Shown here: in pieces, positions 3,976 through 29,784 of the stretch | Layout of the letters: each line of letters opens with the position of its first letter | How positions within the stretch are numbered: position 1 is the first letter of the stretch | Virus record (IMG/VR): IMGVR_UViG_3300029305_002265 | Source of the DNA: a virus | Taxonomy: Duplodnaviria > Heunggongvirae > Uroviricota > Caudoviricetes | Length of the DNA: 64,000 nt | Reading direction: 5' to 3' (one strand) | Made by a program: the position numbers and the translations under genes | Notes under the pieces: generated by a model | What the model was told of the DNA's origin: nothing | What the model saw: the letters and a program-made list of their open reading frames with translations, nothing else | Databases searched by the model: none

Positions 3976-6246
3976 ATGGCAATTATTAACGGAACTTCGG
4001 TGGAGGGAATGACCCTCCAAGCCGATTATTCATATACTCAAAATATATCAGCTAATACATCAACTGTGACGGTTACGCTAAAATTAGTAAACCATTATGC
4101 GCTATATGCGTCCGCACTTAGCGGCTCGTATATTTCTGTTGGTGGTAATAAAACAAACTACAGTAAATCAATTAGTTATGGCGGTTCTACTACAACCACA
4201 ACTACATTGGCAACAAAAACAGTAACAGTTACACACAATAGCAACGGAACTGGAACTTGTGCTATCGGTGGTACATTTGTTATGAACGGTACTTATCGTA
4301 GTACTTATGTTGGTACTATGTCAGTAAGTTCAACGATAACATTACCAACCATTCCTAGATCTTCTGGTTTAACTGTGCCGTCAAGCATTAATACTGGAGC
4401 GACATTATCAGGAACGGTATCTCCATCTTCGACCGTATTTAACCATAAAGTCATACTTAAGACCGGTTCGACTGTAAGAAACACTATTAGTTTGGCTGCC
4501 GGTACGACCGCATTTAGCGACGTGGTTGAACATAACTGGTTTCCAAGTAGTACTAGCGGAACCGTTACTGTGGTTTTAGAAACATATAATGGAACTTCCT
4601 TAGTGGCAACAACCTCAAAGTCTGTAACTGCTAATGTGCCGACATCTGTTGTGCCTTCCGTAAGTGCATTTACTGCGGCAATAGCAGCCAATGGGCTAAG
4701 TGGCTTATATGTTCAAGGCAAAACCACTGCAAAGTTAACGGCTACCGCAACGGCTGGTGCGGGAAGTAGCATTAAGTCTTATACTTATAGTGGACCAAAT
4801 GTAACTTCGTCGTCAAACTCAACAACAATTACGGCGAATACAATAACCACTGCGGCAATTAAATCGTCTGGCACTTTGACTTATACCGTACAGGTACAAG
4901 ATGCCCGCGGTAGAACGGCTAGCAAGACTGTATCAATATCTGTTTACGCATATAGTGCGCCTAAAATTGGATCTATATCTGTTCAGCGTTGTACATCTGA
5001 CGGTACGCTTTCCGATAGTGGCACATATGCAAGATATACCGTTAACTCGTCCTATGCCTCTGTTGGTGGTAAAAACACTCGAACGGTAACGGTTGCTTAT
5101 AGTAGCAATAATGGCTCTACATATTCTGCTACTACGACACTACAGGCGGCAACAGATACTGCCAATTCTAAAACCGGCACATATGGCGGTGGAGCTTTTG
5201 CGGTAGCAAGTTCATATTTGGTTAAGTTTACAATTACAGATGCCTATGGAGCAACGCATAGTGCGACAGCTTCGTTGCAGTCTGCGGCAAGGCCAATTAA
5301 TATTCGCTCGAATGGTAAGGGCGTAGCGATTGGTGCTATGTCCACCAAAGACGCGTTCGAAGTTGCTATGCCTGCAGATTTTAATTCAAGTGTCAACATT
5401 GATGGAAAGTTAACACTGACAGGAGGGTTGTCTACCCCATTATCTATTGCAAATGGTGGAACAGGTGTATCGGCAGCTAGTTCTCTTGCTAGAACCCATA
5501 TTCACAACGACATAGCTGGAGCGTCTAGTTCTGGTGGTACGTTGGGATATCTTCGAATTGCGAGAGTACAAATCACGGCAGGTTATGTAAATCAACCGAT
5601 TGAAATTAAATTTAGTAGAAGACTAGATTCTAGACCCACAACTGTATCTTTATTGTTCCACAACTCTGCGAATCTCGATCCTGGGTATGCCGCATTTGTA
5701 GTTGACGGGCCAGCACCAACATGGTTATATAAGGCTGGAACTAGTATATGGGATATCTATGTGCAAAAAGCAGAATCTTATGATTATATTGGCATATTGG
5801 ACGCGAAATATACTGATAATCTTGTAGAAAAATTAACTATAGCATTTACAGATGTGTTTGCATCAAGTGTGCCAAGCGGTGCAATTGCAGCAACAGAACT
5901 TTATGAGGACTATGTTGTTGAAACTGGCGCCTCTAATGGATGGACGTGGAGGAAATGGCGTGGTGGACGAATGGAACTTTATGGTTCCGCAAGTCATAAC
6001 CCGACGGCACTTAACGATGGAATTAATAGCATGACTGTCACCATGCCAGTATCATTTGTAAATACATCGTTTATGGTTTATCTTACCCCTGCGAAGTGTG
6101 GATTACTTGTCACAAGATTTGGAGATTGTGCTAGTAATAATGATATTACTCATACAAATAATAGTTTTGTTTTATCATATAGGTATAATCATGGAACCGT
6201 GTACACTGTCAATTTCAATGTAATGGTCGTTGGCGGATGGAAATAA
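3976..6246 (+). CDS. Second tail fibre / tail-associated structural protein (756 aa), T/S-rich
   Basis: RBS GAGAGGTGAAAAAGA before the ATG; long low-complexity T/S N-terminus and a C-terminal globular domain; position after the first fibre. Confidence 0.6.
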   Translation: MAIINGTSVEGMTLQADYSYTQNISANTSTVTVTLKLVNHYALYASALSGSYISVGGNKTNYSKSISYGGSTTTTTTLATKTVTVTHNSNGTGTCAIGGTFVMNGTYRSTYVGTMSVSSTITLPTIPRSSGLTVPSSINTGATLSGTVSPSSTVFNHKVILKTGSTVRNTISLAAGTTAFSDVVEHNWFPSSTSGTVTVVLETYNGTSLVATTSKSVTANVPTSVVPSVSAFTAAIAANGLSGLYVQGKTTAKLTATATAGAGSSIKSYTYSGPNVTSSSNSTTITANTITTAAIKSSGTLTYTVQVQDARGRTASKTVSISVYAYSAPKIGSISVQRCTSDGTLSDSGTYARYTVNSSYASVGGKNTRTVTVAYSSNNGSTYSATTTLQAATDTANSKTGTYGGGAFAVASSYLVKFTITDAYGATHSATASLQSAARPINIRSNGKGVAIGAMSTKDAFEVAMPADFNSSVNIDGKLTLTGGLSTPLSIANGGTGVSAASSLARTHIHNDIAGASSSGGTLGYLRIARVQITAGYVNQPIEIKFSRRLDSRPTTVSLLFHNSANLDPGYAAFVVDGPAPTWLYKAGTSIWDIYVQKAESYDYIGILDAKYTDNLVEKLTIAFTDVFASSVPSGAIAATELYEDYVVETGASNGWTWRKWRGGRMELYGSASHNPTALNDGINSMTVTMPVSFVNTSFMVYLTPAKCGLLVTRFGDCASNNDITHTNNSFVLSYRYNHGTVYTVNFNVMVVGGWK

Positions 6247-23441: not shown

Positions 23442-24221
23442 CTATAACTTCTTTGTGTAAGTTAGGCAGATCCAGCCCACACCAGACTTTAGCCTTCCCC
23501 AAACATCGTTGCCAACAACCTTTTCTTCTACTATTGTATAAACCTCATTCTTTTTAACTGTTGTTACAACGTTGTGGTTTGTTCCAGCACCCTTTCTTAC
23601 ATTCAACACATCAGTTGTCACTCTAACTAAATATCTTGCCTGTACGCTCAAGAACGACTCTACTAACTTCCTAAAATCATTCATAGTCTTGCCGTGCTTC
23701 TTAAACCAATGCTCTGGATCTGCATGGTTTGATGCATAACCTTTTCTGTATGCTTCACAGTGCCCTACTATGGTCGCAGGATGAAGATTAAACTGTTTGC
23801 AAAGCATAGCGCAGTACTCTGCCGCAGTACTAAATACCGCATTAAAGTAATTCTTGTTTGTTAAATCGTCCTCGCACATCTCAATCTGTATATGACCAGT
23901 CGGGTTATAGTTATAGCTTCCGTGTTTTCCTCTACCGCATCCCCAGCAGGCATAATTGTATGGCAGAATATTCGCCACTCTTACCTTGTTGTATTTGTCA
24001 TACCCTATAAAACTATGTACGCATTGCTCCCCTATTTTGCTAGATGGATTGTTCCAATGATTGTTGTACCAGTTCTTGCCGCACTCAGACGGACAATCTA
24101 CGTATCTTTTTAAATTTGGGTTGTTTGCCCCTGTGCTATGTAATACAATTCCTACTGGTGTCATTGGTTGCTTAATCACATAGCAATCGTTCTTTGTAGC
24201 ATAAGCTGTAATAATATTCAA
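23442..24221 (-). CDS. Endolysin: N-acetylmuramoyl-L-alanine amidase (Amidase_2/PGRP) + C-terminal SH3b cell-wall-binding domain; TTG start
   Basis: N-terminal IVLHSTG… amidase_2-like; C-terminal ~60 aa SH3b-like (YLVRVTTDVLNVRKGAGTNHNVV…GWICLTY). Confidence 0.7.
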   Translation of the reverse strand: MNIITAYATKNDCYVIKQPMTPVGIVLHSTGANNPNLKRYVDCPSECGKNWYNNHWNNPSSKIGEQCVHSFIGYDKYNKVRVANILPYNYACWGCGRGKHGSYNYNPTGHIQIEMCEDDLTNKNYFNAVFSTAAEYCAMLCKQFNLHPATIVGHCEAYRKGYASNHADPEHWFKKHGKTMNDFRKLVESFLSVQARYLVRVTTDVLNVRKGAGTNHNVVTTVKKNEVYTIVEEKVVGNDVWGRLKSGVGWICLTYTKKL

Positions 24222-24266
24222 AAAACCACATCCTTATATAATCATTTTGTCTTGTTGACATTTTTG

Positions 24267-24296
24267 ATTATATCATAGGATGTGGATTTGTGTCAA
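24267..24296 (-). promoter_or_regulatory. Sigma70-type promoter TTGACA-N18-TATAAT for the endolysin
   Basis: rc of 24291-24296 is TTGACA and rc of 24267-24272 is TATAAT. Confidence 0.4.
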
Positions 24297-24731
24297 TTAT
24301 TTTGTATTGTGAATTTTCTTAGCCTGCTCTCCGAGGAAATTTGCATCTGATTCAAACCAGATAGAATAGTAGTCGGGAAGTTCATTTAAATCCTTTACTT
24401 CACTCATAACTATCAATTTACGATACCACCATCTTACTACGGAGGGGATGCCGATGATAAACGGGAAGAGTGGACCGAAGATGCAACTCTGAATGGCGTG
24501 GCCATGTTCGTGCCACTTGGTAAATTCGCTATCCCTGTCATCTATCACCATTACGGGCCCAAAGCTTACGCCGCCCCAATTGTGACCGACATTGAAGCAC
24601 ATGCAATTACCCCAACGCTTAGGTTTGTGACTAGTAATAACGAGGGCGAGAGCAACGATGGCTCCAATGATTGTCATAATGGAGCCCCAAGTGAACGACA
24701 AAAGATAGAATAAAAATTTGTTGCGCATCAT
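24297..24731 (-). CDS. Small polytopic membrane protein with an HExxH-like (HEHGH) motif; start moved to the internal MM, because the ORF-track N-terminus runs into a tRNA gene
   Basis: RBS AGGAGCG before the ATG at 24731; two or three TM helices; WHEHGHAIQ. Confidence 0.4.
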   Translation of the reverse strand: MMRNKFLFYLLSFTWGSIMTIIGAIVALALVITSHKPKRWGNCMCFNVGHNWGGVSFGPVMVIDDRDSEFTKWHEHGHAIQSCIFGPLFPFIIGIPSVVRWWYRKLIVMSEVKDLNELPDYYSIWFESDANFLGEQAKKIHNTK

Positions 24732-24832
24732 AAATTTAACGCTCCTTATATAATTTGGTCGAATATGTCCGATTCGAACGGCTCCCCGTGCTTCCAATGC
24801 ACGTATGCTACCATTACACCACATACTCGATA

Positions 24833-24908
24833 TGGCTGGCGATGTAGGATTTGAACCTACGAATAACGGAGTCAAAGTCCGCAGTGTTGACCGCTTCACC
24901 AATCGCCA
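24833..24908 (-). tRNA. tRNA-Gln (anticodon TTG), CCA encoded
   Basis: Hand-folded cloverleaf: acceptor TGGCGAT/ATCGCCA, anticodon loop CTTTGAC, T-arm GTAGG-TTCAAAT-CCTAC. Confidence 0.7.
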
Positions 24909-25058
24909 GTATAGATGGCGATTCTTAACTCTTTCGAGAGGCCAATCGCCTTAGCCTTGAGCCGTCTGTTCCCAGCAGATGACTCACTGAATTGTGAAGC
25001 GTATTGCTTCAATAAAAATGTGATTAAATCGTGCGAGGTTCCGTCTTAGAACTTCTGC

Positions 25059-25148
25059 TGGCGCAAAGGGAGGGATTCGAACCCTCGGACTCCGAAGAGT
25101 CGCCGCGTTAGCAGTGCGGTGCAATCGACCAGACTCTGCCACCTTTGC
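25059..25148 (-). tRNA. tRNA-Ser (anticodon GCT), long variable arm, CCA encoded
   Basis: Acceptor GCAAAGG/CCTTTGC, anticodon loop CTGCTAA, variable hairpin GACTC-TTCG-GAGTC, T-arm GAGGG-TTCGAAT-CCCTC. Confidence 0.7.
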
Positions 25149-25654
25149 ATATGAATACGGTTAACTTTCCTCAAGATGACGATCCAAGGAGATTTGAACT
25201 CAGTTCACCGTAAGCATCACACCACGCCAATGCTTAAGACCGCCATATGTAAGAAGAAAGTATAAGTGTCCTTAAGGAACCTTTTCTACACTGGTAGATA
25301 GGCAATTTCACCAAGCAGTATGCCTTAACACAGTACACTACACTCCCTCTGCTTGGGTTTCATTGGGCTGTTCATCTAACTCCATTTCACCACTGCTGCT
25401 ATCTCCTTGTTATACTCATTACAGCAAGAATTTCTTCTTCATTCGAGTTCCTTTTGTGTAACGCCAACACCAAATGCGTCTACCAATCGGAAGGCTTCGT
25501 GGCACCCAACTTAACTTCCTTGATTAGGCGCAAGGGAACGCCACACTTAAGCAGGCGGATATTCCTCCGCAGTAGAATTTCTCATGACCAAATCCTCCTT
25601 TGCTAAGTATCGTAAGCTTTTGAGCTTGTTTTTGTCCTTACGGACTGGAGCGAT

Positions 25655-25765
25655 AGGCTAGATTCGAACTAGCATGTCTACCAAGACTTAAACGGAATCG
25701 AACCGCACGGGCTATAACCCCACTTTACCATTATAGTTTACTATCGCGCATGCCCCACACTTAAC
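25655..25765 (-). pseudogene. tRNA-like element: acceptor-like pairing GCGATAG/CTATCGC + T-arm GCTAG-TTCGAAT-CTAGC + TCCA, but about 100 nt long with no canonical D/anticodon arms. Possible tRNA pseudogene, intron-containing tRNA or other tRNA-like RNA
   Basis: Read on the minus strand; the internal segment has a second TTCGATT T-loop-like motif. Confidence 0.25.
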
Positions 25766-26044
25766 GCTAACAGACTCCTACTGACCAGTGGGCTACGGCT
25801 ATGACATTACTTCATTCTGCTTCGAAGGGACATTTGTTATCCGCATTTCCTTACGGGCAAGACCTGCTTTCACCCATTTGCAATTGGGTTTCTTTTAATA
25901 ATCCTTCGGCTTAACCCCGCCTACCACGCGGGTGCTTTATTTCGAATTACGCATTCTTACTTGCGTACCATTAACCTACAACGCTATTCGACAGGGTTGT
26001 TATAATTTTTTACTAGCAGACCTTAACAACTTATCATACTGCCC

Positions 26045-26120
26045 TGGTGAGTCTGGAGAGATTCGAACTCTCGACCCCGTGATTAAAAGTCACGTGCTCT
26101 GCCAACTGAGCTACAGACTC
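26045..26120 (-). tRNA. tRNA-Lys (anticodon TTT), CCA encoded
   Basis: GAGTCTG acceptor, D-arm TAGCTCAGTTGGCAGAGC, anticodon arm CGTGA-CTTTTAA-TCACG, T-arm GAGAG-TTCGAAT-CTCTC. Confidence 0.85.
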
Positions 26121-26129
26121 ATATAAAGT

Positions 26130-26180
26130 GAGATTTCTAAAACCCTCCACAGTGGGAAACTCCATCTCGATGTTTTTTTA
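26130..26180. ncRNA. Conserved hairpin element 1 (GAGATTTCTAAAACC…GGAAACTCCATCTC + T-run), paralogue of 26392-26440
   Basis: Shares stem position, TCTAAAACC and GGAAACT loop blocks and a trailing T-run with element 2; sits between tRNA-Leu(TAG) and tRNA-Lys. Confidence 0.4.
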
Positions 26181-26209
26181 TTACAGGAGGTGATCGTATG
26201 ATGTACGAA

Positions 26210-26294
26210 TGGTGCAGATACTGGGATTCCAACCCAGACGCCTTGCAGCAATAGATCCTAAGTCTATCGTGTCTTGCAGTTCCACCATATCTGC
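26210..26294 (-). tRNA. tRNA-Leu (anticodon TAG), long variable arm, CCA encoded
   Basis: Acceptor GCAGATA/TATCTGC, anticodon arm ATAGA-CTTAGGA-TCTAT, T-arm CTGGG-TTGGAAT-CCCAG. Confidence 0.7.
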
Positions 26295-26298
26295 ATAT

Positions 26299-26383
26299 TG
26301 GTGCGAATGGTGGGACTTGAACCCACACGCTTTATAGCAATGGTGTTTGAGACCACATCGTCTGCCAATTCCGACACACTCGC
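26299..26383 (-). tRNA. tRNA-Leu (anticodon CAA), long variable arm, CCA encoded
   Basis: Acceptor GCGAGTG/CATTCGC, anticodon arm GTGGT-CTCAAAC-ACCAT, T-arm GTGGG-TTCAAGT-CCCAC. Confidence 0.7.
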
Positions 26384-26391
26384 ATATAGAT

Positions 26392-26440
26392 GAGACGTCT
26401 AAAACCTACTGCAATAGGAAACTTCGTCTCAAGTTTTTTT
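26392..26440. ncRNA. Conserved hairpin element 2 (GAGACGTCTAAAACC…GGAAACTTCGTCTC + T-run)
   Basis: See element 1; located just upstream (minus sense) of tRNA-Leu(CAA). Confidence 0.4.
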
Positions 26441-26591
26441 AACTTTTGGAGGTCTGACGTGCAAACAAATCTCGCTACGTGCTCTCCCTAACAGCGTACA
26501 ACTCCTTACGAGCGTGGGTGTTGCCCTCTTACGAGGTCGCAGGGTTACTGGTTTGGAGAGCGCCTACTACTAACCCTTTTTCGATAGTTAT

Positions 26592-27089
26592 TTATGACAA
26601 GAAATTTTTCGACTTATATTTATGTATGTTCTTGCCCTTATAATTGTCGGTTAAGGCATGACAATTAGGACATAATAATTGTAAATTTTCTATATTGTTA
26701 TTTTCTTTATTTCCATCTTTATGATGTACTTCAAGTGGTATAGGAACATTATTCCATAATGTATTTTTACAACACTCACAAATATGTTCTTTAAGTCCCT
26801 CGCGAAGAAGTTTCTTTCTTATTTTGTTGGTTTGAACATTTTTACTTTTAATATATTCATTAAATGGAACATATCTATCACTTTCATAAGTTTTTCCAGA
26901 TAACCAACCTTGTCCAGTGAAATGAGATATATCGAGATTTAATTCTTGAATCATTGATTGCAAAGTTATATAACTAGAACCGCACTTACTGTATCCTAAT
27001 TTTTGAGATAATGTTGACCAACTATAACTTTCTTTTACATATTGTTCAATCTCTTGTCTGGTGTAATTTCTCCATTTTGCTTTCTTCAT
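26592..27089 (-). mobile_element. HNH homing endonuclease (165 aa) inserted in the tRNA island
   Basis: C-terminal HNH motif EVHHKDGNKENNNIENLQLLCPNCH; N-terminal DNA-binding-like region; AT-rich relative to its flanks; homing endonucleases typically sit in phage tRNA clusters. Confidence 0.75.
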
Positions 27090-27489
27090 ATGATACCCTC
27101 TTCAATATAATTTAAAGAGTAATTTTTCAGGTATCTTTTATCGCATCTTTTATAGAAAAACTACTGCCTTTCGGCTGGTAGGGCGAGAGGGATTCGAACC
27201 CTCAAAACACGGATTTTTGGTGGAAGACCCAAGAATTGAACTCAGACCTCGTTACTAGATTATTGTGCTTCCGTTACACCAATCTCCCAAGTCCGCTGTC
27301 TCTGCCAGTTTGACTACCGCCCCGTTTTGTTTTGTTTGATTGAGCCATCGGACTTCCACCGATGGGATGTGTGGTGAGCTTCGTGTTTGCAACCACTTCT
27401 CACGGTCTTTTTAATCCATCCACTTGCGACCAACATTTTAATTAATTTACACACATTTTTCATATCTTGTACTTTTAAGAGATTTTCTT

Positions 27490-27570
27490 TTCGGTCATCC
27501 TCAGAAGATTCGAACTCCATCTCACCCTGCTATTGGGTGAGCTCTACCCTTGAGCTATCGTTGGACTAAT
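27490..27570 (-). pseudogene. tRNA fragment/pseudogene: canonical D-arm (TAGCTCAAGGGTAGAGC), anticodon-arm-like and T-arm (GGAG-TTCGAAT-CTTC) but no pairable acceptor stem
   Basis: Hand folding of the minus strand; the acceptor halves do not pair. Confidence 0.3.
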
Positions 27571-27688
27571 CTCTGCCACCCATTTCAGAGGTGTACGGTC
27601 TCTTAAGAAATGGTTCGTACTTGTGGCATACTTAATATGGCTTTGTACTCACTACTCAATCATTTTGTCTTGTTTCTGTTGTGCCTAT

Positions 27689-27753
27689 ATTATAGCACAA
27701 CTTTTTCGTTTTGTCAATACCTTTTCGTAATCGTTTACAATCTGTTTACAATT
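27689..27753 (-). promoter_or_regulatory. Sigma70-type promoter (TTGACA-N17-TGcTATAAT) with TTGTAAACAGATTGTAAAC repeats; likely drives the tRNA-island transcript
   Basis: rc of 27712-27717 is TTGACA and rc of 27689-27694 is TATAAT with an extended -10; repeats at 27733-27753. Confidence 0.5.
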
Positions 27754-27969
27754 TTAAATAATCCAAGGAAGGATTATGCCTGAGATGTCCTTATCACAGT
27801 AACAGTAGATTGTCTTCCACTCGACGGTGTAAACCGCCCCCAGTAGCGACTTCGCTGAAACTCTATTACCATCATCGTCTTCAAGGATGACCTTTTCAGT
27901 TACTGTAGACACCGTATCTACAAATGATCGAATATCACTCATAGTATCAAGTCTAATTCTCTGTCTCAT
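27754..27969 (-). CDS. HPr/Crh-like small protein (71 aa): retains the Ser46-region motif (GNRVSAKSLLGAV) but lacks the His15 region
   Basis: Segment LEDDDGNRVSAKSLLGAVYTVEW parallels HPr [21 protein letters not shown]; own promoter and RBS. Confidence 0.35.
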   Translation of the reverse strand: MRQRIRLDTMSDIRSFVDTVSTVTEKVILEDDDGNRVSAKSLLGAVYTVEWKTIYCYCDKDISGIILPWII

Positions 27970-28001
27970 TCTTTTTATGTCCTCTCTTATGTTGTGCTAA
28001 T

Positions 28002-28030
28002 ATTATATCATAATCATTCTGTTTTGTCAA
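28002..28030 (-). promoter_or_regulatory. Sigma70-type promoter TTGACA-N17-TATAAT for the HPr-like gene
   Basis: rc of 28025-28030 is TTGACA and rc of 28002-28007 is TATAAT. Confidence 0.45.
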
Positions 28031-28081
28031 TATGCAAAATGTACAAAAATTATAGTTATTATTTTGTATATATTGTACAAA

Positions 28082-28990
28082 CTAGTGGGCCGCCTTATCG
28101 GCTTCGTGAAGTTGCATTATATCATTATACAATTCTTCTCCCCAAAGCCTACGATACTTATTGTGCAACTTCTCATTATTATCCTTTTCCCAGAAGTAAG
28201 GTTGCATGTGCCAACGAATTAAAACTGCAACATACAGCAGATCTATCTTATCAGAAAAATCTTCGCGATAAAATAAACTATCATAGCTGCCTGTGTGCTC
28301 GTGGTTGTAATAATGAGCTTGTTCGGTTATCTCACCTTTTGTATTTTTGAATGTCTTGCAAAATGGTTTACCGCAATCGTGCAGCATTCCAGCGAATTTA
28401 AGTTCCTTCGACGTATTATTTAATTTAACACATACTGCTTCACAATGCTCGCCTAACGTTAAAGTATGATGTGTATTATGTTGATTAAAATGTTTATTCG
28501 CAAGATAAAAATTGTTAGGGAGTCTATAATTCGTATCATAATGCATAACTATTATATCATCCCATCCCTCATAGTCCCACGGCGGATCAAAATTCGTATA
28601 CATTCTTTTGATAACATACTCAGGCACTTTTCTGTCTCTTTTTGCACTACGCTCAAGACAGGTCTCGTATGGAGTCGCCATTAATACACAGACTTTTTTA
28701 CAGGGAATATTCTTTAATTCCTGTAAAAACGCTTTACGCTCCTTATAGTGGACACAACAAGCATCATATATACAACTTTTCCCACTCCTTAAATCATCCT
28801 TAACGCGCTGATGGAGTGTCTTGAAGACTAAGACGTTGTTTTCTTGATTATTAGTGTCTCCTGTAAGCTCCTCACGAATAGCGTCACTAGAATGAATATT
28901 GGCGTTGTAGTTCTTGGCAAGTCTTATGGCTTCTGTGGATTTGCCACTACAGGGTAAACCGCACATCATCCAAAAAGTCGGTCTATTCAT
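28082..28990 (-). CDS. Bifunctional P-loop kinase + HD phosphohydrolase (Pnkp-like polynucleotide kinase/phosphoesterase candidate)
   Basis: N-terminal Walker A MMCGLPCSGKST (T4 Pnk/AAA_33-like); C-terminal HD motifs (…MLHDCGKP…H…HEH…). Confidence 0.5.
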   Translation of the reverse strand: MNRPTFWMMCGLPCSGKSTEAIRLAKNYNANIHSSDAIREELTGDTNNQENNVLVFKTLHQRVKDDLRSGKSCIYDACCVHYKERKAFLQELKNIPCKKVCVLMATPYETCLERSAKRDRKVPEYVIKRMYTNFDPPWDYEGWDDIIVMHYDTNYRLPNNFYLANKHFNQHNTHHTLTLGEHCEAVCVKLNNTSKELKFAGMLHDCGKPFCKTFKNTKGEITEQAHYYNHEHTGSYDSLFYREDFSDKIDLLYVAVLIRWHMQPYFWEKDNNEKLHNKYRRLWGEELYNDIMQLHEADKAAH

Positions 28991-29784
28991 TTGTCTATTT
29001 CCTTTCTAAAACTATGCTTTAACACATCAAATAACACGCTATTCATAATCTCATCAACCTCAGAGTCGATAACCAATGGGTGGGTATCCATATATTCTTG
29101 CTTTGTAAGTTTAACAAGATATTCAATGTTATTTGCCATTTGCCTTGCTTCTTCCAATGAATGAATATACTCAGCCTTAACGTTGATTAAATACTGAGGG
29201 TTCGTAGGAATAAGACATTCTGCATAAGAAGTTCCAGCGATATACCTATTAAGAAACTCTTCACAACGAATAATGTGGTGCAATTGTTTATTGTCGTAAC
29301 CATACTTTTTGATCTTTTCAATAAGTGTGGGATACGGATGTTCCATCGCTTTATGCTTTTCGTACACCATTCCTGCAATGCAATTAACCGCCGCATAGTT
29401 ATTATAGTGCGCTATCTTTTCATTGCTATCAAACATAGGTTGATATAAATCTGCATATTCTGGATTAAGATACTTATATTTCGTGAATAGGATTTCTATG
29501 AAGTTGATATTTTGCTTACGAAAACAATCGTGCATTAATCTGATATCTTTAATATCTATATGTTCGTTGCTCGGCAATATTAATGTTGTGCTTGCAGGTT
29601 TACGATTAAGCACGAAGTCTTCAAATGCGGGAATGACTATCGCCTTAGTGTCGATATCGCTGCCCTCATAATCAAGATGGTAGTTTTGGGAGCCTTGAAG
29701 AAAAACTCCCAAAACCTTATAGCCCAAAGAGGCGGCATAATCAAAATCGGATTTCAGTCTATTGAAAATTTTATCATCTTTCAT
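28987..29784 (-). CDS. Pol-beta-superfamily nucleotidyltransferase (265 aa); function unknown, possibly an RNA 3-prime-end modifying/CCA-type or MNT-type NTase
   Basis: hG[GS]x9-13Dh[DE] NTase signature in LQGSQNYHLDYEGSDIDTKAIV. Confidence 0.4.
   Translation of the reverse strand: MKDDKIFNRLKSDFDYAASLGYKVLGVFLQGSQNYHLDYEGSDIDTKAIVIPAFEDFVLNRKPASTTLILPSNEHIDIKDIRLMHDCFRKQNINFIEILFTKYKYLNPEYADLYQPMFDSNEKIAHYNNYAAVNCIAGMVYEKHKAMEHPYPTLIEKIKKYGYDNKQLHHIIRCEEFLNRYIAGTSYAECLIPTNPQYLINVKAEYIHSLEEARQMANNIEYLVKLTKQEYMDTHPLVIDSEVDEIMNSVLFDVLKHSFRKEIDK

What the first reader, a model, noticed from the sequence alone, without database searches (positions are those of the whole stretch)
24833..27760. 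tRNA island with only five canonical tRNAs in about 2.8 kb, plus tRNA-like fragments, an inserted HNH endonuclease and about 1 kb of ORF-free, hairpin-rich sequence
Seen in sequence:
- Five cloverleaf-foldable tRNAs (Gln-TTG, Ser-GCT, Lys-TTT, Leu-TAG, Leu-CAA), all on the minus strand and downstream of a consensus promoter at 27689-27753.
- Between and around them are:
  - a ~100-nt element with tRNA-like acceptor pairing and a perfect T-arm but no normal D/anticodon arms (25655-25765);
  - a D-arm + anticodon-arm + T-arm unit lacking an acceptor stem (27490-27570);
  - further T-loop-like motifs (about 25186 and 27190-27260) that do not fold into tRNAs;
  - strong local hairpins (GGCGATT…AATCGCC at 24917-24950; GCGGA-tattcc-TCCGC at 25553-25570);
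  - an AT-rich HNH homing endonuclease gene (26592-27089).
- Region 25150-26040 has no plausible ORF on either strand.

Inference:
- Possibilities are decayed tRNAs left by repeated homing-endonuclease activity, non-canonical or permuted tRNA-like RNAs, or an unrecognised structured ncRNA.
- No canonical tmRNA or RNase P motifs were spotted by eye.
Basis: partly seen in the sequence, partly recalled or inferred. Interest (0 to 1): 0.55.

Follow-up and report, generated by a model that had tools for sequence, protein, structure and literature searches.

The report
New structured RNAs between phage tRNAs
The gene-free stretches between the tRNA genes of this large gut phage are mostly not tRNA wreckage: they hold at least two conserved, intricately folded RNAs of unknown function that match no catalogued RNA family, and their ends usually sit next to tRNAs or tRNA-like elements.

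Summary
All features lie on the minus strand, behind a perfect promoter (27717-27689). There are six canonical tRNAs (Pro-TGG lies just outside the given range), an HNH gene, and several tRNA-like pieces.

The "fragments" are mostly not decay products:
- **Split tRNA.** 27323-27176 is a tRNA(UAA). A 71-nt tRNA-like element lacking an anticodon arm (27288-27218) sits exactly between U34 and A35. A related phage has the same tRNA intact.
- **Leader RNA.** The unit at 27490-27570 is the centre of a ~325-350-nt leader RNA (about 27682-27325). It is conserved in three other phages, with 29 of 71 predicted pairs compensatory.
- **Block A.** 26044-25748 is a ~297-nt RNA found at 11 other metagenomic loci.
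  - Its ~113-nt core is 75-99% identical to the window, although a neighbouring protein is about 56% identical.
  - Covariation is strong: 99% of cells paired, and 12 of 21 pairs changed on both sides.
  - It ends in a self-complementary hexamer in all 12 sequences (three variants), usually directly before a tRNA or tRNA-like element whose identity varies.

No Rfam family matches, including GOLLD, ROOL, tmRNA, RNase P and group I introns.

Best reading: a tRNA-punctuated transcript that releases new stable structured RNAs, with block A possibly self-pairing. Function is unknown.

The parts
27689..27717 (-). Sigma-70-type promoter of the island (TTGACA, 17 nt, TG-TATAAT).
   Evidence: 12/12 consensus match with a TG extension. 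The promoter region is alignable in L019 and L017.
27325..27682 (-). Leader RNA, about 325-350 nt. It is closed by a terminal helix, GAUUGAG (27661-27655) with CUCAAUC (27344-27338).
   Evidence: Homologs: L019 3812-4140, L037 6738-7100 and L017 5222-5640. RNAalifold gives 71 pairs, 29 of them with compensatory changes in four sequences. No Rfam hit. No match in GenBank phages. The 5' end is inferred from the promoter, not mapped.
27490..27585 (-). tRNA-like elbow domain inside the leader RNA: a D-arm-like hairpin, a variable hairpin and a T-arm (GGAGUUCGAAUCU).
   Evidence: The T-arm is invariant. The D-like and anticodon-like hairpins covary. The enclosing helix AGAGAUU/AAUCUCU becomes AAAGUUU/AAACUUU in L017.
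27176..27323 (-). tRNA(UAA) gene interrupted in its anticodon. The 5' half is 27323-27289 and the 3' half is 27217-27176.
   Evidence: ARAGORN intron mode finds it. The two halves match one contiguous, intact tRNA in L117 at 86% and 88% identity. Removing 27288-27218 restores a 77-nt tRNA with the anticodon loop CUUAAAA, as in L117.
27218..27288 (-). 71-nt tRNA-like insert: acceptor stem, D-arm, T-arm and a CCACCA end, with 14 nt in place of the anticodon arm. It sits between U34 and A35 of the host tRNA.
   Evidence: Rfam tRNA 26.9 bits, below the 29-bit threshold.. A similar element lies immediately upstream of block A in L117.
26592..27089 (-). Free-standing HNH homing-endonuclease gene (165 aa).
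   Evidence: Pfam HNH_3 and PHROG HNH endonuclease. Absent from the syntenic tRNA run of L117.
26454..26591 (-). GC-rich stretch after the HNH gene, with GUAA-loop hairpins. No homolog was found.
   Evidence: Fold z-score -0.7. No BLAST match in any locus. Its status as a structured RNA is not established.
26384..26453 (-). D2a spacer element before tRNA-Leu(CAA).
   Evidence: Repeat family D2. The pattern occurs twice against 0.00 expected. Fold z-score -2.1.
26210..26383 (-). tRNA-Leu(CAA) 26299-26383 and tRNA-Leu(TAG) 26210-26294.
26121..26209 (-). D2b spacer element before tRNA-Lys. It contains GAUCACCUCCU (26195-26185).
   Evidence: A homolog precedes tRNA-Trp in L110.
26045..26120 (-). 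tRNA-Lys(TTT). Its CCA end abuts block A.
   Evidence: 74.8 bits.
25748..26044 (-). Block A RNA, 297 nt.
- A proposed 5' H-type pseudoknot.
- A hairpin GCGU/ACGC.
- A long-range helix GUAAGA/UCUUGC enclosing variable hairpins.
- A hairpin ACCCA/UGGGU whose loop holds UUGCAA (25883-25878).
- A conserved core with helices CCGUA/UGCGG, CUUCG/UGAAG, CCCAC/GUGGG and CAG/CUG.
- A 3'-terminal palindrome GCAUGC (25753-25748).
   Evidence: Homologs in L017, L021, L107, L109-L114, L117 and L118. Alignments A9 and A10. Covariation: 99.2% of cells paired, 12 of 21 pairs changed on both sides, 0 of 500 shuffles reach this. Palindrome in 12 of 12 sequences. No Rfam hit.
25646..25747 (-). 102-nt tRNA-like element directly after block A: acceptor GCGAUAG/CUAUCGC plus UCCA, and two T-arm-like hairpins.
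   Evidence: At the same position other loci carry tRNAs or tRNA-like elements of different identity.
25547..25600 (-). Shine-Dalgarno sequence AAGGAGG plus a 12-codon ORF (ATG at 25585, TAA ending at 25547; MRNSTAEEYPPA). It overlaps the hairpin GCGGA-GGAAUA-UCCGC.
   Evidence: Same length, start and stop in L111 (MRNSIKEETPPN) and L117 (MRNSITEETPPN).
25255..25546 (-). Downstream conserved RNA blocks, in the same order as in relatives, separated by variable inserts:
- a proposed pseudoknot at about 25544-25511;
- GGUGCCACGAAGCC at 25506-25493;
- block B at 25403-25366;
- GCCUAUCUACCAGUGUAGAAAAGGUUCC at about 25305-25274.
   Evidence: Block B is also present in L017, L019, L021, L111 and L117.
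25163..25245 (-). tRNA-like element with a 7-bp acceptor-like stem, one long hairpin and a degenerate T-arm. No homolog was detected.
   Evidence: ARAGORN finds it only at a relaxed threshold. Fold z-score -0.3. No BLAST match. This is the best candidate for a decayed tRNA.
24917..24950 (-). Minihelix GGCGAUU...AAUCGCC that copies the acceptor stem of the following tRNA-Gln.
   Evidence: 90% identical over 42 nt in L111 and covered by longer 73-78% matches in L117 and L019. L111 has the compensatory form GGCGACU/AGUCGCC. Fold z-score -2.25.
24756..25148 (-). tRNA-Ser(GCT) 25059-25148, tRNA-Gln(TTG) 24833-24908 and tRNA-Pro(TGG) 24756-24829. They are followed by the 144-aa membrane-protein gene (24731-24297).
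   Evidence: No terminator-like site on the minus strand between 27689 and 24297.

Best explanation
**Proposed mechanism.** The island is one transcription unit. It starts at the promoter at 27717-27689 and probably runs through the 144-aa gene that ends at 24297. tRNAs and tRNA-like elements act as punctuation in this transcript. Host RNase P and the tRNA 3'-end processing enzymes cut at each of them. This releases the six tRNAs, the HNH mRNA and at least two stable structured RNAs that belong to no described family.

**The two RNAs.**
- The leader RNA (about 325-350 nt) has a built-in tRNA-like elbow.
- Block A (297 nt) has a very strongly conserved core.
- Block A gets its 5' end from the CCA end of tRNA-Lys. 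It gets its 3' end from RNase P cleavage in front of the tRNA-like element at 25747.
- That cut would expose a self-complementary hexamer, through which two copies could pair. A second palindrome in a hairpin loop could provide another contact.

**Status of each step.**
- Shown: the two RNAs are real, conserved and structured on this strand. Their borders usually coincide with the ends of tRNAs or tRNA-like elements. The tRNA(UAA) is interrupted by a tRNA-like insert.
- Inferred: co-transcription, cleavage by RNase P and the 3'-end enzymes, and self-pairing.
- Unknown: what the RNAs do. My guess is that they serve the phage's tRNA and RNA-repair agenda during infection, for example by binding or decoying a host factor that recognises tRNA.
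For: **Block A is conserved far beyond its surroundings.**
- Eleven other loci carry it.
- Its 113-column core is 75-99% identical to the window.
- The flanking 144-aa protein is only 56% identical in L017, and its gene 61%.

**The block A structure is supported by covariation.**
- 99.2% of cells pair, and 12 of 21 pairs changed on both sides.
- 0 of 500 shuffles reach this, and slid controls pair at only 26-45%.
- Invariant U-G and G-U pairs fix the strand as the tRNA strand.
- The divergent L117 and L118 copies carry compensatory changes in CCGUA/UGCGG and CUUCG/UGAAG, and L117 also in the long-range helix.

**The palindromes are conserved as palindromes.**
- The hexamer after GUUAAGUGUGGG is a palindrome in 12 of 12 sequences: GCAUGC in 7, AGAUCU in 3, AUGCAU in 2. 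All three pairs covary.
- A 6-nt palindrome sits at the equivalent hairpin position in 9 of 10 sequences: UUGCAA, UAGCUA or GAGCUC.

**Borders coincide with tRNA ends.**
- The 5' side follows the CCA of tRNA-Lys, Gly or Trp, of a tRNA-like element, or of a half-tRNA. In L107 it follows a promoter-like sequence.
- The 3' side abuts a tRNA or tRNA-like element of varying identity in 10 of 12 loci. ARAGORN's calls there are Lys, Ala, Arg and Thr, plus a chimeric Ile in L107, and other loci have odd elements. L118 has a tRNA-Ser after six extra bases.
- These partners keep the acceptor stem, T-arm and NCCA end, which established knowledge says make up the minimal RNase P substrate. Their anticodon arms are often aberrant.

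**The leader RNA is conserved and structured.** 71 pairs, 29 compensatory. In the window, L019 and L117 it is followed within about 15-22 nt by a tRNA.

**Transcription context.** One consensus promoter lies upstream, and no terminator-like site lies on this strand within the island.
Against: - There are no expression data. Transcription, cleavage sites and RNA stability are all inferred.
- Single-sequence folding energies are not better than shuffles (z = -0.4 for the 896-nt region).
- L112 has no recognisable tRNA after its block A, and L118 has six extra bases before its tRNA.
- L017 has an ORF, not a tRNA, on the 5' side of block A and after its leader RNA.
- Only about 12 block A and 4 leader sequences are available. 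Several are close relatives, so the pair counts are not independent events.
- The loop palindrome is absent in L117 and may lie partly within a stem in L021 and L113.
- The palindromes could be recognised at the DNA level instead.
- The conserved 12-codon ORF shows that part of the 'non-coding' region may be translated.
Confidence: 0.6

Rival explanations
1. The ORF-free sequence is a graveyard of decayed tRNA genes and rearrangement scars, left by recombination and homing-endonuclease activity. It has no function of its own.
For: - Several pieces look tRNA-derived. These include 25245-25163 (ARAGORN only at a relaxed threshold, no homolog) and block B, which resembles a T-arm region (family D7).
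- Half-tRNAs sit upstream of block A in L113 and L118, and a tRNA 3' half lies inside the variable region of L107.
- An HNH gene sits in the island.
- One tRNA is clearly disrupted.
Against: - Block A and the leader RNA are conserved with compensatory changes across phages whose neighbouring protein has diverged to about 56% identity.
- In BLAST comparisons with the same phages, the block A core is more conserved than the tRNAs themselves, which are 73-81% identical.
- The HNH gene is absent from the relatives that carry block A.
Confidence: 0.1
2. The 900-nt region is a very divergent member of GOLLD (or ROOL), the known ornate RNAs of phage tRNA islands. Block A would be the 5' domain, the tRNA-like element the linker, and 25645-25250 the 3' domain.
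For: - The genomic niche is the same: phage tRNA islands.
- GOLLD has a 5' and a 3' domain, and tRNAs are sometimes present in its linker (PMC12286853).
- The total length here is about 900 nt, and about 1,300 nt in L117.
- There are conserved blocks separated by variable inserts.
Against: - There is no GOLLD or ROOL hit even at E <= 10 on 311-, 911- and 3,901-nt slices of the window, or at E <= 5 on eight related loci.
- In GOLLD the 3' region is the universally conserved one. Here the 5' module is the best conserved.
- The two modules occur independently. L019 has block B without block A, and L109 has block A without a detectable match to the window's downstream blocks.
Confidence: 0.04
3. 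The conserved elements are only cis-acting spacers of the pre-tRNA transcript. They would be folding chaperones or processing and decay signals that control tRNA maturation, with no product that acts after cleavage.
For: - They always sit inside tRNA operons on the tRNA strand.
- Block A is usually fused to a downstream tRNA-like element.
- The short D2 spacer elements and the minihelix look like processing signals.
Against: - A 297-nt RNA with a proposed pseudoknot, a multi-helix junction and a core that is 75-99% identical is far more than processing signals usually need.
- The tRNA that follows changes identity and is often non-canonical, so the conserved partner is block A, not a particular tRNA.
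- Conserved palindromes point to intermolecular contacts.
Confidence: 0.2
4. The conservation acts on DNA or on small proteins, not on RNA structure. The region could be a replication or packaging site, a protein-binding palindrome, or a set of micro-ORFs.
For: - The hexamers are palindromes in DNA too.
- A 12-codon ORF with a strong Shine-Dalgarno sequence is conserved in three phages.
Against: - Covariation keeps G-U and U-G pairs, which are mismatches on the other strand or in duplex DNA.
- Three different palindromes at one site do not fit one conserved DNA-binding protein.
- No ORF of 40 aa or more lies within block A apart from a 64-aa opposite-strand ORF that runs on through tRNA-Lys. 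The micro-ORF lies outside block A.
Confidence: 0.05

Closest known systems
GOLLD and ROOL RNAs (Rfam families; cryo-EM in PMC12286853)
   Same: - They are large, intricately folded RNAs of unknown function, encoded in phages and prophages, often next to tRNA islands.
- GOLLD can carry tRNAs in its linker.
- Both assemble into homo-oligomers through self-complementary kissing loops.
- Here the niche is the same, a tRNA-like element is attached, and self-complementary hexamers are conserved.
   Different: - No sequence or structure match to either covariance model.
- The RNAs here are much smaller units (297 and about 325-350 nt).
- The best-conserved part is the 3' end of the 5' module.
- Oligomerisation here is only inferred.
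tRNA punctuation of mitochondrial transcripts, and the MALAT1-mascRNA arrangement (from my own knowledge of the field)
   Same: A tRNA or tRNA-like structure embedded in a long transcript directs RNase P and RNase Z, and so defines the ends of the neighbouring RNA. In MALAT1, RNase P cleavage before a tRNA-like element creates the mature 3' end of a stable non-coding RNA.
   Different: - Those are eukaryotic or organellar systems. Here the setting is a phage of bacteria.
- Cleavage has not been shown.
- MALAT1 protects its 3' end with a triple helix. Block A ends in a helix followed by a palindromic hexamer.
Small stable RNAs (species 1 and 2, rnaC/rnaD) in the phage T4 tRNA gene cluster (from memory, not checked here)
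   Same: Non-tRNA stable RNAs that are co-transcribed and co-processed with phage tRNAs. Their function is unknown.
   Different: - They are much smaller.
- No sequence relation was tested.
- No match in GenBank phages for block A or the leader RNA.
Free-standing homing endonucleases in phage tRNA clusters (T4 SegB, T5 HNH nickases; from memory)
   Same: An HNH gene sits among the tRNA genes, next to a tRNA whose sequence differs from the allele in relatives.
   Different: - Cleavage specificity is unknown.
- The neighbouring tRNA is not merely polymorphic. It is interrupted by a 71-nt tRNA-like insert.
Group I intron of bacterial and plastid tRNA-Leu(UAA) (from my own knowledge)
   Same: The insert interrupts a tRNA with anticodon UAA between U34 and A35, the classic intron position.
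   Different: - The insert is 71 nt and tRNA-shaped.
- It has no group I core, and there is no Rfam Intron_gpI hit.
- No splicing mechanism is evident.
Bacterial Y RNA-like YrlA and tmRNA (RNAs with an embedded tRNA-like domain)
   Same: The leader RNA has an internal module of D-loop-like hairpin plus T-arm, set in a larger RNA whose 5' and 3' ends pair.
   Different: - YrlA scores only 17 bits, and over tRNA-Ser rather than the leader.
- ARAGORN finds no tmRNA at default settings, and Rfam finds no tmRNA family.
- No Ro or SmpB gene was looked for.

Membership tests
GOLLD RNA (Rfam) | Match to the family covariance model, especially the universally conserved 3' region. | tested here: not met
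   No hit at E <= 10 on the window slices 24200-28100, 25140-26050 and 25740-26050, or at E <= 5 on eight related loci.
GOLLD RNA (Rfam) | Encoded in a phage or prophage near a tRNA island, sometimes with a tRNA in the linker. | tested here: met
   Block A lies between tRNA-Lys and a tRNA-like element, inside a six-tRNA island of a ~172-kb phage contig.
ROOL RNA (Rfam) | Match to the family covariance model. | tested here: not met
   No hit.
RNA-only homo-oligomer (the ROOL/GOLLD/OLE type of assembly) | Forms defined multimers without protein. | not testable with these tools
   Only indirect evidence: self-complementary hexamers conserved as palindromes in 12 of 12 sequences (3' end) and 9 of 10 sequences (hairpin position).
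tRNA (Rfam RF00005), for 25747-25646 | Cloverleaf scoring at or above the gathering threshold, with a 7-nt anticodon loop. | tested here: not met
   No RF00005 hit. tRNA-Sec scores 18.7 bits against a threshold of 47. The acceptor stem, T-arm and UCCA end are present, along with an extra T-arm-like hairpin.
tRNA (Rfam RF00005), for 27288-27218 | Cloverleaf scoring at or above the gathering threshold. | tested here: not met
   26.9 bits against a threshold of 29. The anticodon arm is replaced by 14 nt.
tRNA, for 27323-27176 with the insert removed | Cloverleaf with a 7-nt anticodon loop, and homology to an intact tRNA. | tested here: met
   Once the insert is removed, ARAGORN calls a 77-nt tRNA(taa). 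The halves are 86% and 88% identical to the contiguous L117 tRNA.
Group I intron | Conserved catalytic core (Rfam Intron_gpI). | tested here: not met
   No hit anywhere in 24200-28100 at E <= 10.
tmRNA (standard or permuted) | tRNA-like domain formed by the RNA's ends, plus a tag reading frame. Detected by ARAGORN or by Rfam tmRNA models. | tested here: not met
   ARAGORN finds none at default settings. It gives only low-threshold 'permuted' calls with atypical tags. No Rfam tmRNA hit.
RNase P RNA | Match to a bacterial RNase P model, with the conserved regions CR-I to CR-V. | tested here: not met
   No Rfam hit. The GGAAGUCC in the leader RNA is not conserved in its homologs.
HNH homing endonuclease, for 26592-27089 | HNH nuclease motif. 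| tested here: met
   Pfam HNH_3 29.6 bits (cut-off 24.8). PHROG HNH endonuclease E 7e-41. Nuclease activity and target are not testable here.
RNase P substrate (minimal: acceptor stem stacked on T-arm, NCCA end) | A 7-bp acceptor stem plus a 5-bp T-stem with a 7-nt T-loop and a 3' NCCA. | tested here: inconclusive
   These features are present in 25747-25646 and in most of its positional equivalents. Cleavage itself is not testable here.

The most novel reading that the evidence does not exclude
Block A is a third, unrelated class of phage tRNA-island RNA that assembles with itself. Assembly would run through its 3'-terminal palindrome, exposed by RNase P, and a palindromic hairpin loop. The attached tRNA-like elements would serve as handles or decoys for host tRNA-binding factors, for example anticodon nucleases of anti-phage defence. 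In the same transcript, the tRNA(UAA) split by a tRNA-shaped insert might be cut by RNase P and the 3'-end enzymes and re-joined by phage RNA-repair enzymes. That would be a new route of tRNA splicing in bacteria.
Probability: 0.12. Interest if true: 0.88.

Novelty: new variant of a known kind. Interest (0 to 1): 0.68.

Why it matters
Phage tRNA islands are known to harbour two enigmatic ornate RNAs, GOLLD and ROOL. Their function is still unknown even though their cage-like structures have been solved. Finding further, unrelated structured RNAs in the same niche suggests the niche itself matters: tRNA operons may be a general launch pad for phage non-coding RNAs. They are strongly transcribed and come with built-in end-processing.

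The RNAs here are small (about 300 nt). They are strongly conserved, bordered by tRNA-like elements, and carry covarying self-complementary hexamers. That makes them tractable for RNase P assays, native gels and cryo-EM.

The locus also gives a clean natural example of a tRNA-like element nested in the anticodon of another tRNA. It sits about 1.2 kb downstream of the first of a pair of phage genes for a polynucleotide-kinase-like enzyme and a nucleotidyltransferase. That arrangement makes the question of tRNA cutting and rejoining during infection directly testable.

Tried and rejected
**Known RNA families.**
- Four Rfam scans of the window, from all 64 kb down to a 311-nt slice, and two of related loci found only tRNAs and chance-level hits.

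**Thermodynamic folding.**
- Z-scores are uninformative: -0.4 and -1.05 for the two strands of the 896-nt region, and -0.3 to -2.25 for the small elements.

**Relatives found through neighbouring proteins.**
- Relatives found through the kinase-HD protein (L001-L009) have no tRNA island at that site, and no homolog of any of the RNAs.
- Of 80 IMG/VR loci found through the 144-aa protein family, only L037 carries the leader RNA and none carries block A.
- Three further contig look-ups gave unrelated contexts.

**DNA-pattern scans.**
- A pattern from the double T-arm element and the D2 pattern found nothing in IMG/VR.
- Two patterns found no bacterial genome copy. L116 is a chance match, and so is L108.

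**An rRNA link.**
- L107 seemed to place block A in a bacterial rRNA operon, but it is an assembly chimera. Its first 24 tRNA bases equal the phage tRNA-Lys of L114, the rest is a bacterial tRNA-Ile(GAU), and the resulting acceptor stem pairs poorly.
- By eye the core resembled 5S rRNA, the L11-binding region of 23S rRNA and RNase P conserved regions. Local alignment scores are not above shuffles (23S: 23 against 21.6 ± 2.0; 5S: p about 0.06). I dropped these.

**Other checks.**
- A model of the block A core found no convincing extra copy in 1.25 Mb of loci. The best was L097 at 21.6 bits.
- No paper in the held library contains the core sequence strings.
- GenBank phages lack both RNAs.

Full report
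**1. What is in the sequence**

Everything of interest is on the minus strand.
- ARAGORN and Rfam agree on six canonical tRNAs.
- A perfect sigma-70-type promoter with an extended -10 lies at 27717-27689. Three more perfect promoters lie at 28030, 24296 and 23385, all on this strand.
- No terminator-like site occurs on this strand inside the island. The simplest reading is one transcript from about 27682 through the 144-aa gene ending at 24297. This is inferred, not shown.
- The ORF at 26592-27089 is an HNH endonuclease.
- No ORF of 40 aa or more lies in 25607-25931. Only short mechanical ORFs overlap the rest of 25150-26040.

**2. Where the window comes from**

- The window is 100% identical over the 3.9-kb island region compared to a 172-kb metagenomic contig. 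Proteins flanking the island recur in about 30 samples, and the sampled copies show almost no variation.
- The best protein matches of its DNA ligase are uncultured phages from human faeces and Clostridium phage c-st, at about 41-42% identity. It is therefore probably a large phage of gut Firmicutes.
- Upstream of the island lie a polynucleotide-kinase-like protein with an HD domain (28082-28990) and a nucleotidyltransferase (28987-29784). Further upstream are PARP, NAMPT and NAD synthase genes.

**3. The interrupted tRNA (27323-27176)**

- In intron mode, ARAGORN reports a tRNA with a 71-nt insert.
- The two flanks, 27330-27289 and 27217-27176, match one contiguous, intact tRNA in the related locus L117 at 86% and 88% identity.
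- Deleting 27288-27218 restores a 77-nt tRNA whose anticodon loop, CUUAAAA, is the same as in L117. The insert therefore sits between U34 and A35 of a UAA anticodon.
- The insert itself has an acceptor stem, a D-arm, a T-arm and a CCACCA end, but 14 nt in place of the anticodon arm. Rfam scores it at 26.9 bits, just below threshold.
- A similar element lacking an anticodon arm lies immediately upstream of block A in L117.
- I cannot tell whether the host tRNA is simply inactivated or is cut and re-joined.
- The HNH gene starts 86 nt downstream and is absent from L117. A link to homing is plausible but untested.

**4. The leader RNA (about 27682-27325)**

Homologs exist in L019 (74% identity over 803 nt, including the upstream gene), L037 (72%) and L017 (61%).
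- RNAalifold on the four sequences gives 71 pairs, 29 of them with compensatory changes.
- The 5' and 3' ends pair: GAUUGAG with CUCAAUC, which becomes AAUUGAG with CUCAAUU in L037.
- The tRNA-like module keeps an invariant T-arm, while its other hairpins covary. It is enclosed by AGAGAUU/AAUCUCU, which becomes AAAGUUU/AAACUUU in L017.
- In the window, L019 and L117 a tRNA follows within about 15-22 nt. In L017 an ORF follows.
- No Rfam family matches, and neither does any GenBank phage.

**5. Block A (26044-25748)**

How the homologs were found:
- The first hit was L017, at 76% over 259 nt, with a stretch of about 120 nt that is almost identical.
- DNA patterns taken from that stretch found L021, L107 and L109-L114, then L117 and L118.
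- L108 and L116 are chance matches.

Conservation:
- The 113-column core is 75-99% identical to the window.
- The neighbouring 144-aa protein of L017 is only 56% identical.
- In BLAST comparisons with the same phages, the shared tRNAs are 73-81% identical.

Structure and covariation:
- On the 12-sequence core alignment I named four helices plus the terminal hexamer.
- 99.2% of cells pair, and 12 of 21 pairs have changes on both sides. No shuffle out of 500 reaches this.
- Sliding the partner columns drops pairing to 26-45%.
- Invariant U-G and G-U pairs show that the structure belongs to the tRNA strand.

Further helices:

| Helix | Variants seen |
|---|---|
| Long-range GUAAGA/UCUUGC | UAGAG/CUCUA in L117 |
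| Hairpin GCGU/ACGC | third and fourth pairs covary |
| Hairpin ACCCA/UGGGU | ACAUA/UAUGU, GCGUA/UACGC, GUUUG/CAAAC |

- I also propose a 5' H-type pseudoknot. Its second stem changes from GUUG/CAAC to GUAG/CUAC or GUUU/AAAC.
- I read the pseudoknot by eye and did not test it statistically. The divergent L118 copy appears to lack it.

**6. Palindromes in block A**

- In all 12 sequences, the six bases after GUUAAGUGUGGG are self-complementary: GCAUGC in seven, AGAUCU in three and AUGCAU in two.
- All three positions covary (helix 5).
- A hexamer cannot fold on itself. The simplest RNA-level reading is pairing between two molecules.
- A second 6-nt palindrome lies in or next to the ACCCA/UGGGU hairpin loop in 9 of 10 sequences: UUGCAA in six, UAGCUA in one and GAGCUC in two. 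L117 has none.
- Self-complementary contacts hold ROOL and GOLLD cages together (PMC12286853). That makes self-assembly a reasonable inference here, but it is unproven.

**7. Borders**

- On its 5' side, block A starts right after the CCA of tRNA-Lys (window), tRNA-Gly (L109) or tRNA-Trp (L021, L110).
- In other loci it starts after a tRNA-like element (L117), after a half-tRNA ending in CCA (L113, L118), or after a promoter-like sequence (L107).
- On its 3' side, the palindrome directly abuts a tRNA or tRNA-like element in 10 of 12 loci. In L118 six extra bases intervene. L112 has no recognisable tRNA there.
- ARAGORN calls that partner Lys, Ala, Arg or Thr in different loci (Ser in L118, and a chimeric Ile in L107). 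Several are non-canonical. They keep the acceptor stem, T-arm and NCCA end.
- From established knowledge of RNase P, those are the features it needs. This is the basis for the punctuation model, which resembles mitochondrial transcripts and MALAT1-mascRNA.
- The window's partner is the 102-nt element at 25747-25646, with two T-arm-like hairpins.

**8. Downstream of block A**

- L111 and L117 are colinear with the window.
- They share a Shine-Dalgarno sequence plus a 12-codon ORF of the same length (window 25585-25547).
- They also share a proposed pseudoknot (about 25544-25511), in which CCUUG/CAAGG becomes UCUUG/CAAGA in L111, and three further blocks separated by variable inserts.
- Block B (25403-25366) also occurs in L017, L019 and L021.
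- L019 lacks block A, and L109 has block A without a detectable match to these downstream blocks. They are therefore separate modules.
- I did not model this region fully.
- The element at 25245-25163 has no detected homolog and may be a decayed tRNA.
- The minihelix at 24950-24917 copies the acceptor stem of tRNA-Gln. It is conserved in L019, L111 and L117, with a compensatory change in L111.

**9. Comparison with what is known**

- No Rfam family fits: not GOLLD, ROOL, tmRNA, RNase P RNA, group I introns or Y RNA-like RNAs.
- The held literature contains none of the core strings.
- In niche and style, the closest known RNAs are GOLLD and ROOL. Membership was tested and not met.
- I therefore rate the finding as a new variant of a known kind: unrelated structured RNA families occupying the phage tRNA-island niche.

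**10. Limits**

- There are no expression or cleavage data.
- Sequences are few, and some are closely related.
- The function is unknown.
- The decoy and self-assembly ideas are hypotheses.

Noticed in passing
window 26453-26384 and 26209-26121 (minus strand); L110 about 2350-2425: A repeated ~70-nt spacer element precedes tRNA-Leu(CAA), tRNA-Lys and, in L110, tRNA-Trp. It consists of ACCUCC(U), an A-run, and a two-level hairpin (GAGAYG...AGUUUCC-hairpin-GGUUUUAGA...CRUCUC) with compensatory changes.
   Followed up: partly
window 26195-26185 (minus strand): GATCACCTCCT matches 11 bases at the 3' end of E. coli 16S rRNA, ending two bases before its terminus (the anti-Shine-Dalgarno region). It occurs once in the window, against 0.03 expected. 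It could pair with the strong Shine-Dalgarno sequence at 25600-25594.
   Followed up: partly
L107 (OQVL01025847.1), whole contig: This public contig joins phage block A and the first 24 nt of a phage tRNA-Lys to a bacterial tRNA-Ile(GAU) and 23S rRNA. The hybrid tRNA has a poorly paired acceptor stem, so it is an assembly chimera rather than a bacterial home for block A.
   Followed up: yes
window 25585-25547 (minus strand), with SD at 25600-25594: A 12-codon ORF (MRNSTAEEYPPA) with a perfect Shine-Dalgarno sequence. Its length, start and stop are conserved in L111 and L117, with several amino-acid changes. It may be a translated micro-ORF, or only an RNA hairpin.
   Followed up: partly
window 28082-29784 (minus strand) and further upstream: Directly upstream of the island lie a polynucleotide-kinase-like protein with an HD domain and a nucleotidyltransferase. 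Beyond them are PARP, NAMPT and NAD synthase genes. Together these suggest RNA repair and NAD replenishment, possibly counter-defence.
   Followed up: partly
window 28030-28002, 27717-27689, 24296-24267, 23385-23358 (minus strand): Four 12/12 matches to the sigma-70 consensus in 6 kb, three with a TG extension, all on the coding strand. The surrounding sequence is similar in related phages.
   Followed up: no
window 26591-26454 (minus strand): A GC-rich 140-nt stretch after the HNH stop codon, with two GUAA-loop hairpins and a long-range GCUCUCC/GGGAGAGC helix. No homolog was found and the fold z-score is only -0.7, so its status is open.
   Followed up: partly
L019 about 4636-4680 and 4746-4790: The block B motif (AAAUGGAG...GAACAGCC) occurs twice in L019, about 110 nt apart, in a phage that lacks block A.
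   Followed up: no
L107 about 1990-1950 (minus strand); L113 8925-8957; L118 about 3521-3481 (minus strand): tRNA 3' halves (T-arm, acceptor strand and CCA) occur inside the variable region of one block A copy and just upstream of two others. This suggests that tRNA-derived modules are repeatedly recruited into these RNAs.
   Followed up: no
L118 from about 2865 down to 2550 and beyond (minus strand): Just after the tRNA run that follows the L118 copy of block A, there is an ORF with a DYGCADG motif. By eye this looks like a class I SAM-dependent methyltransferase. No family search was run.
   Followed up: no
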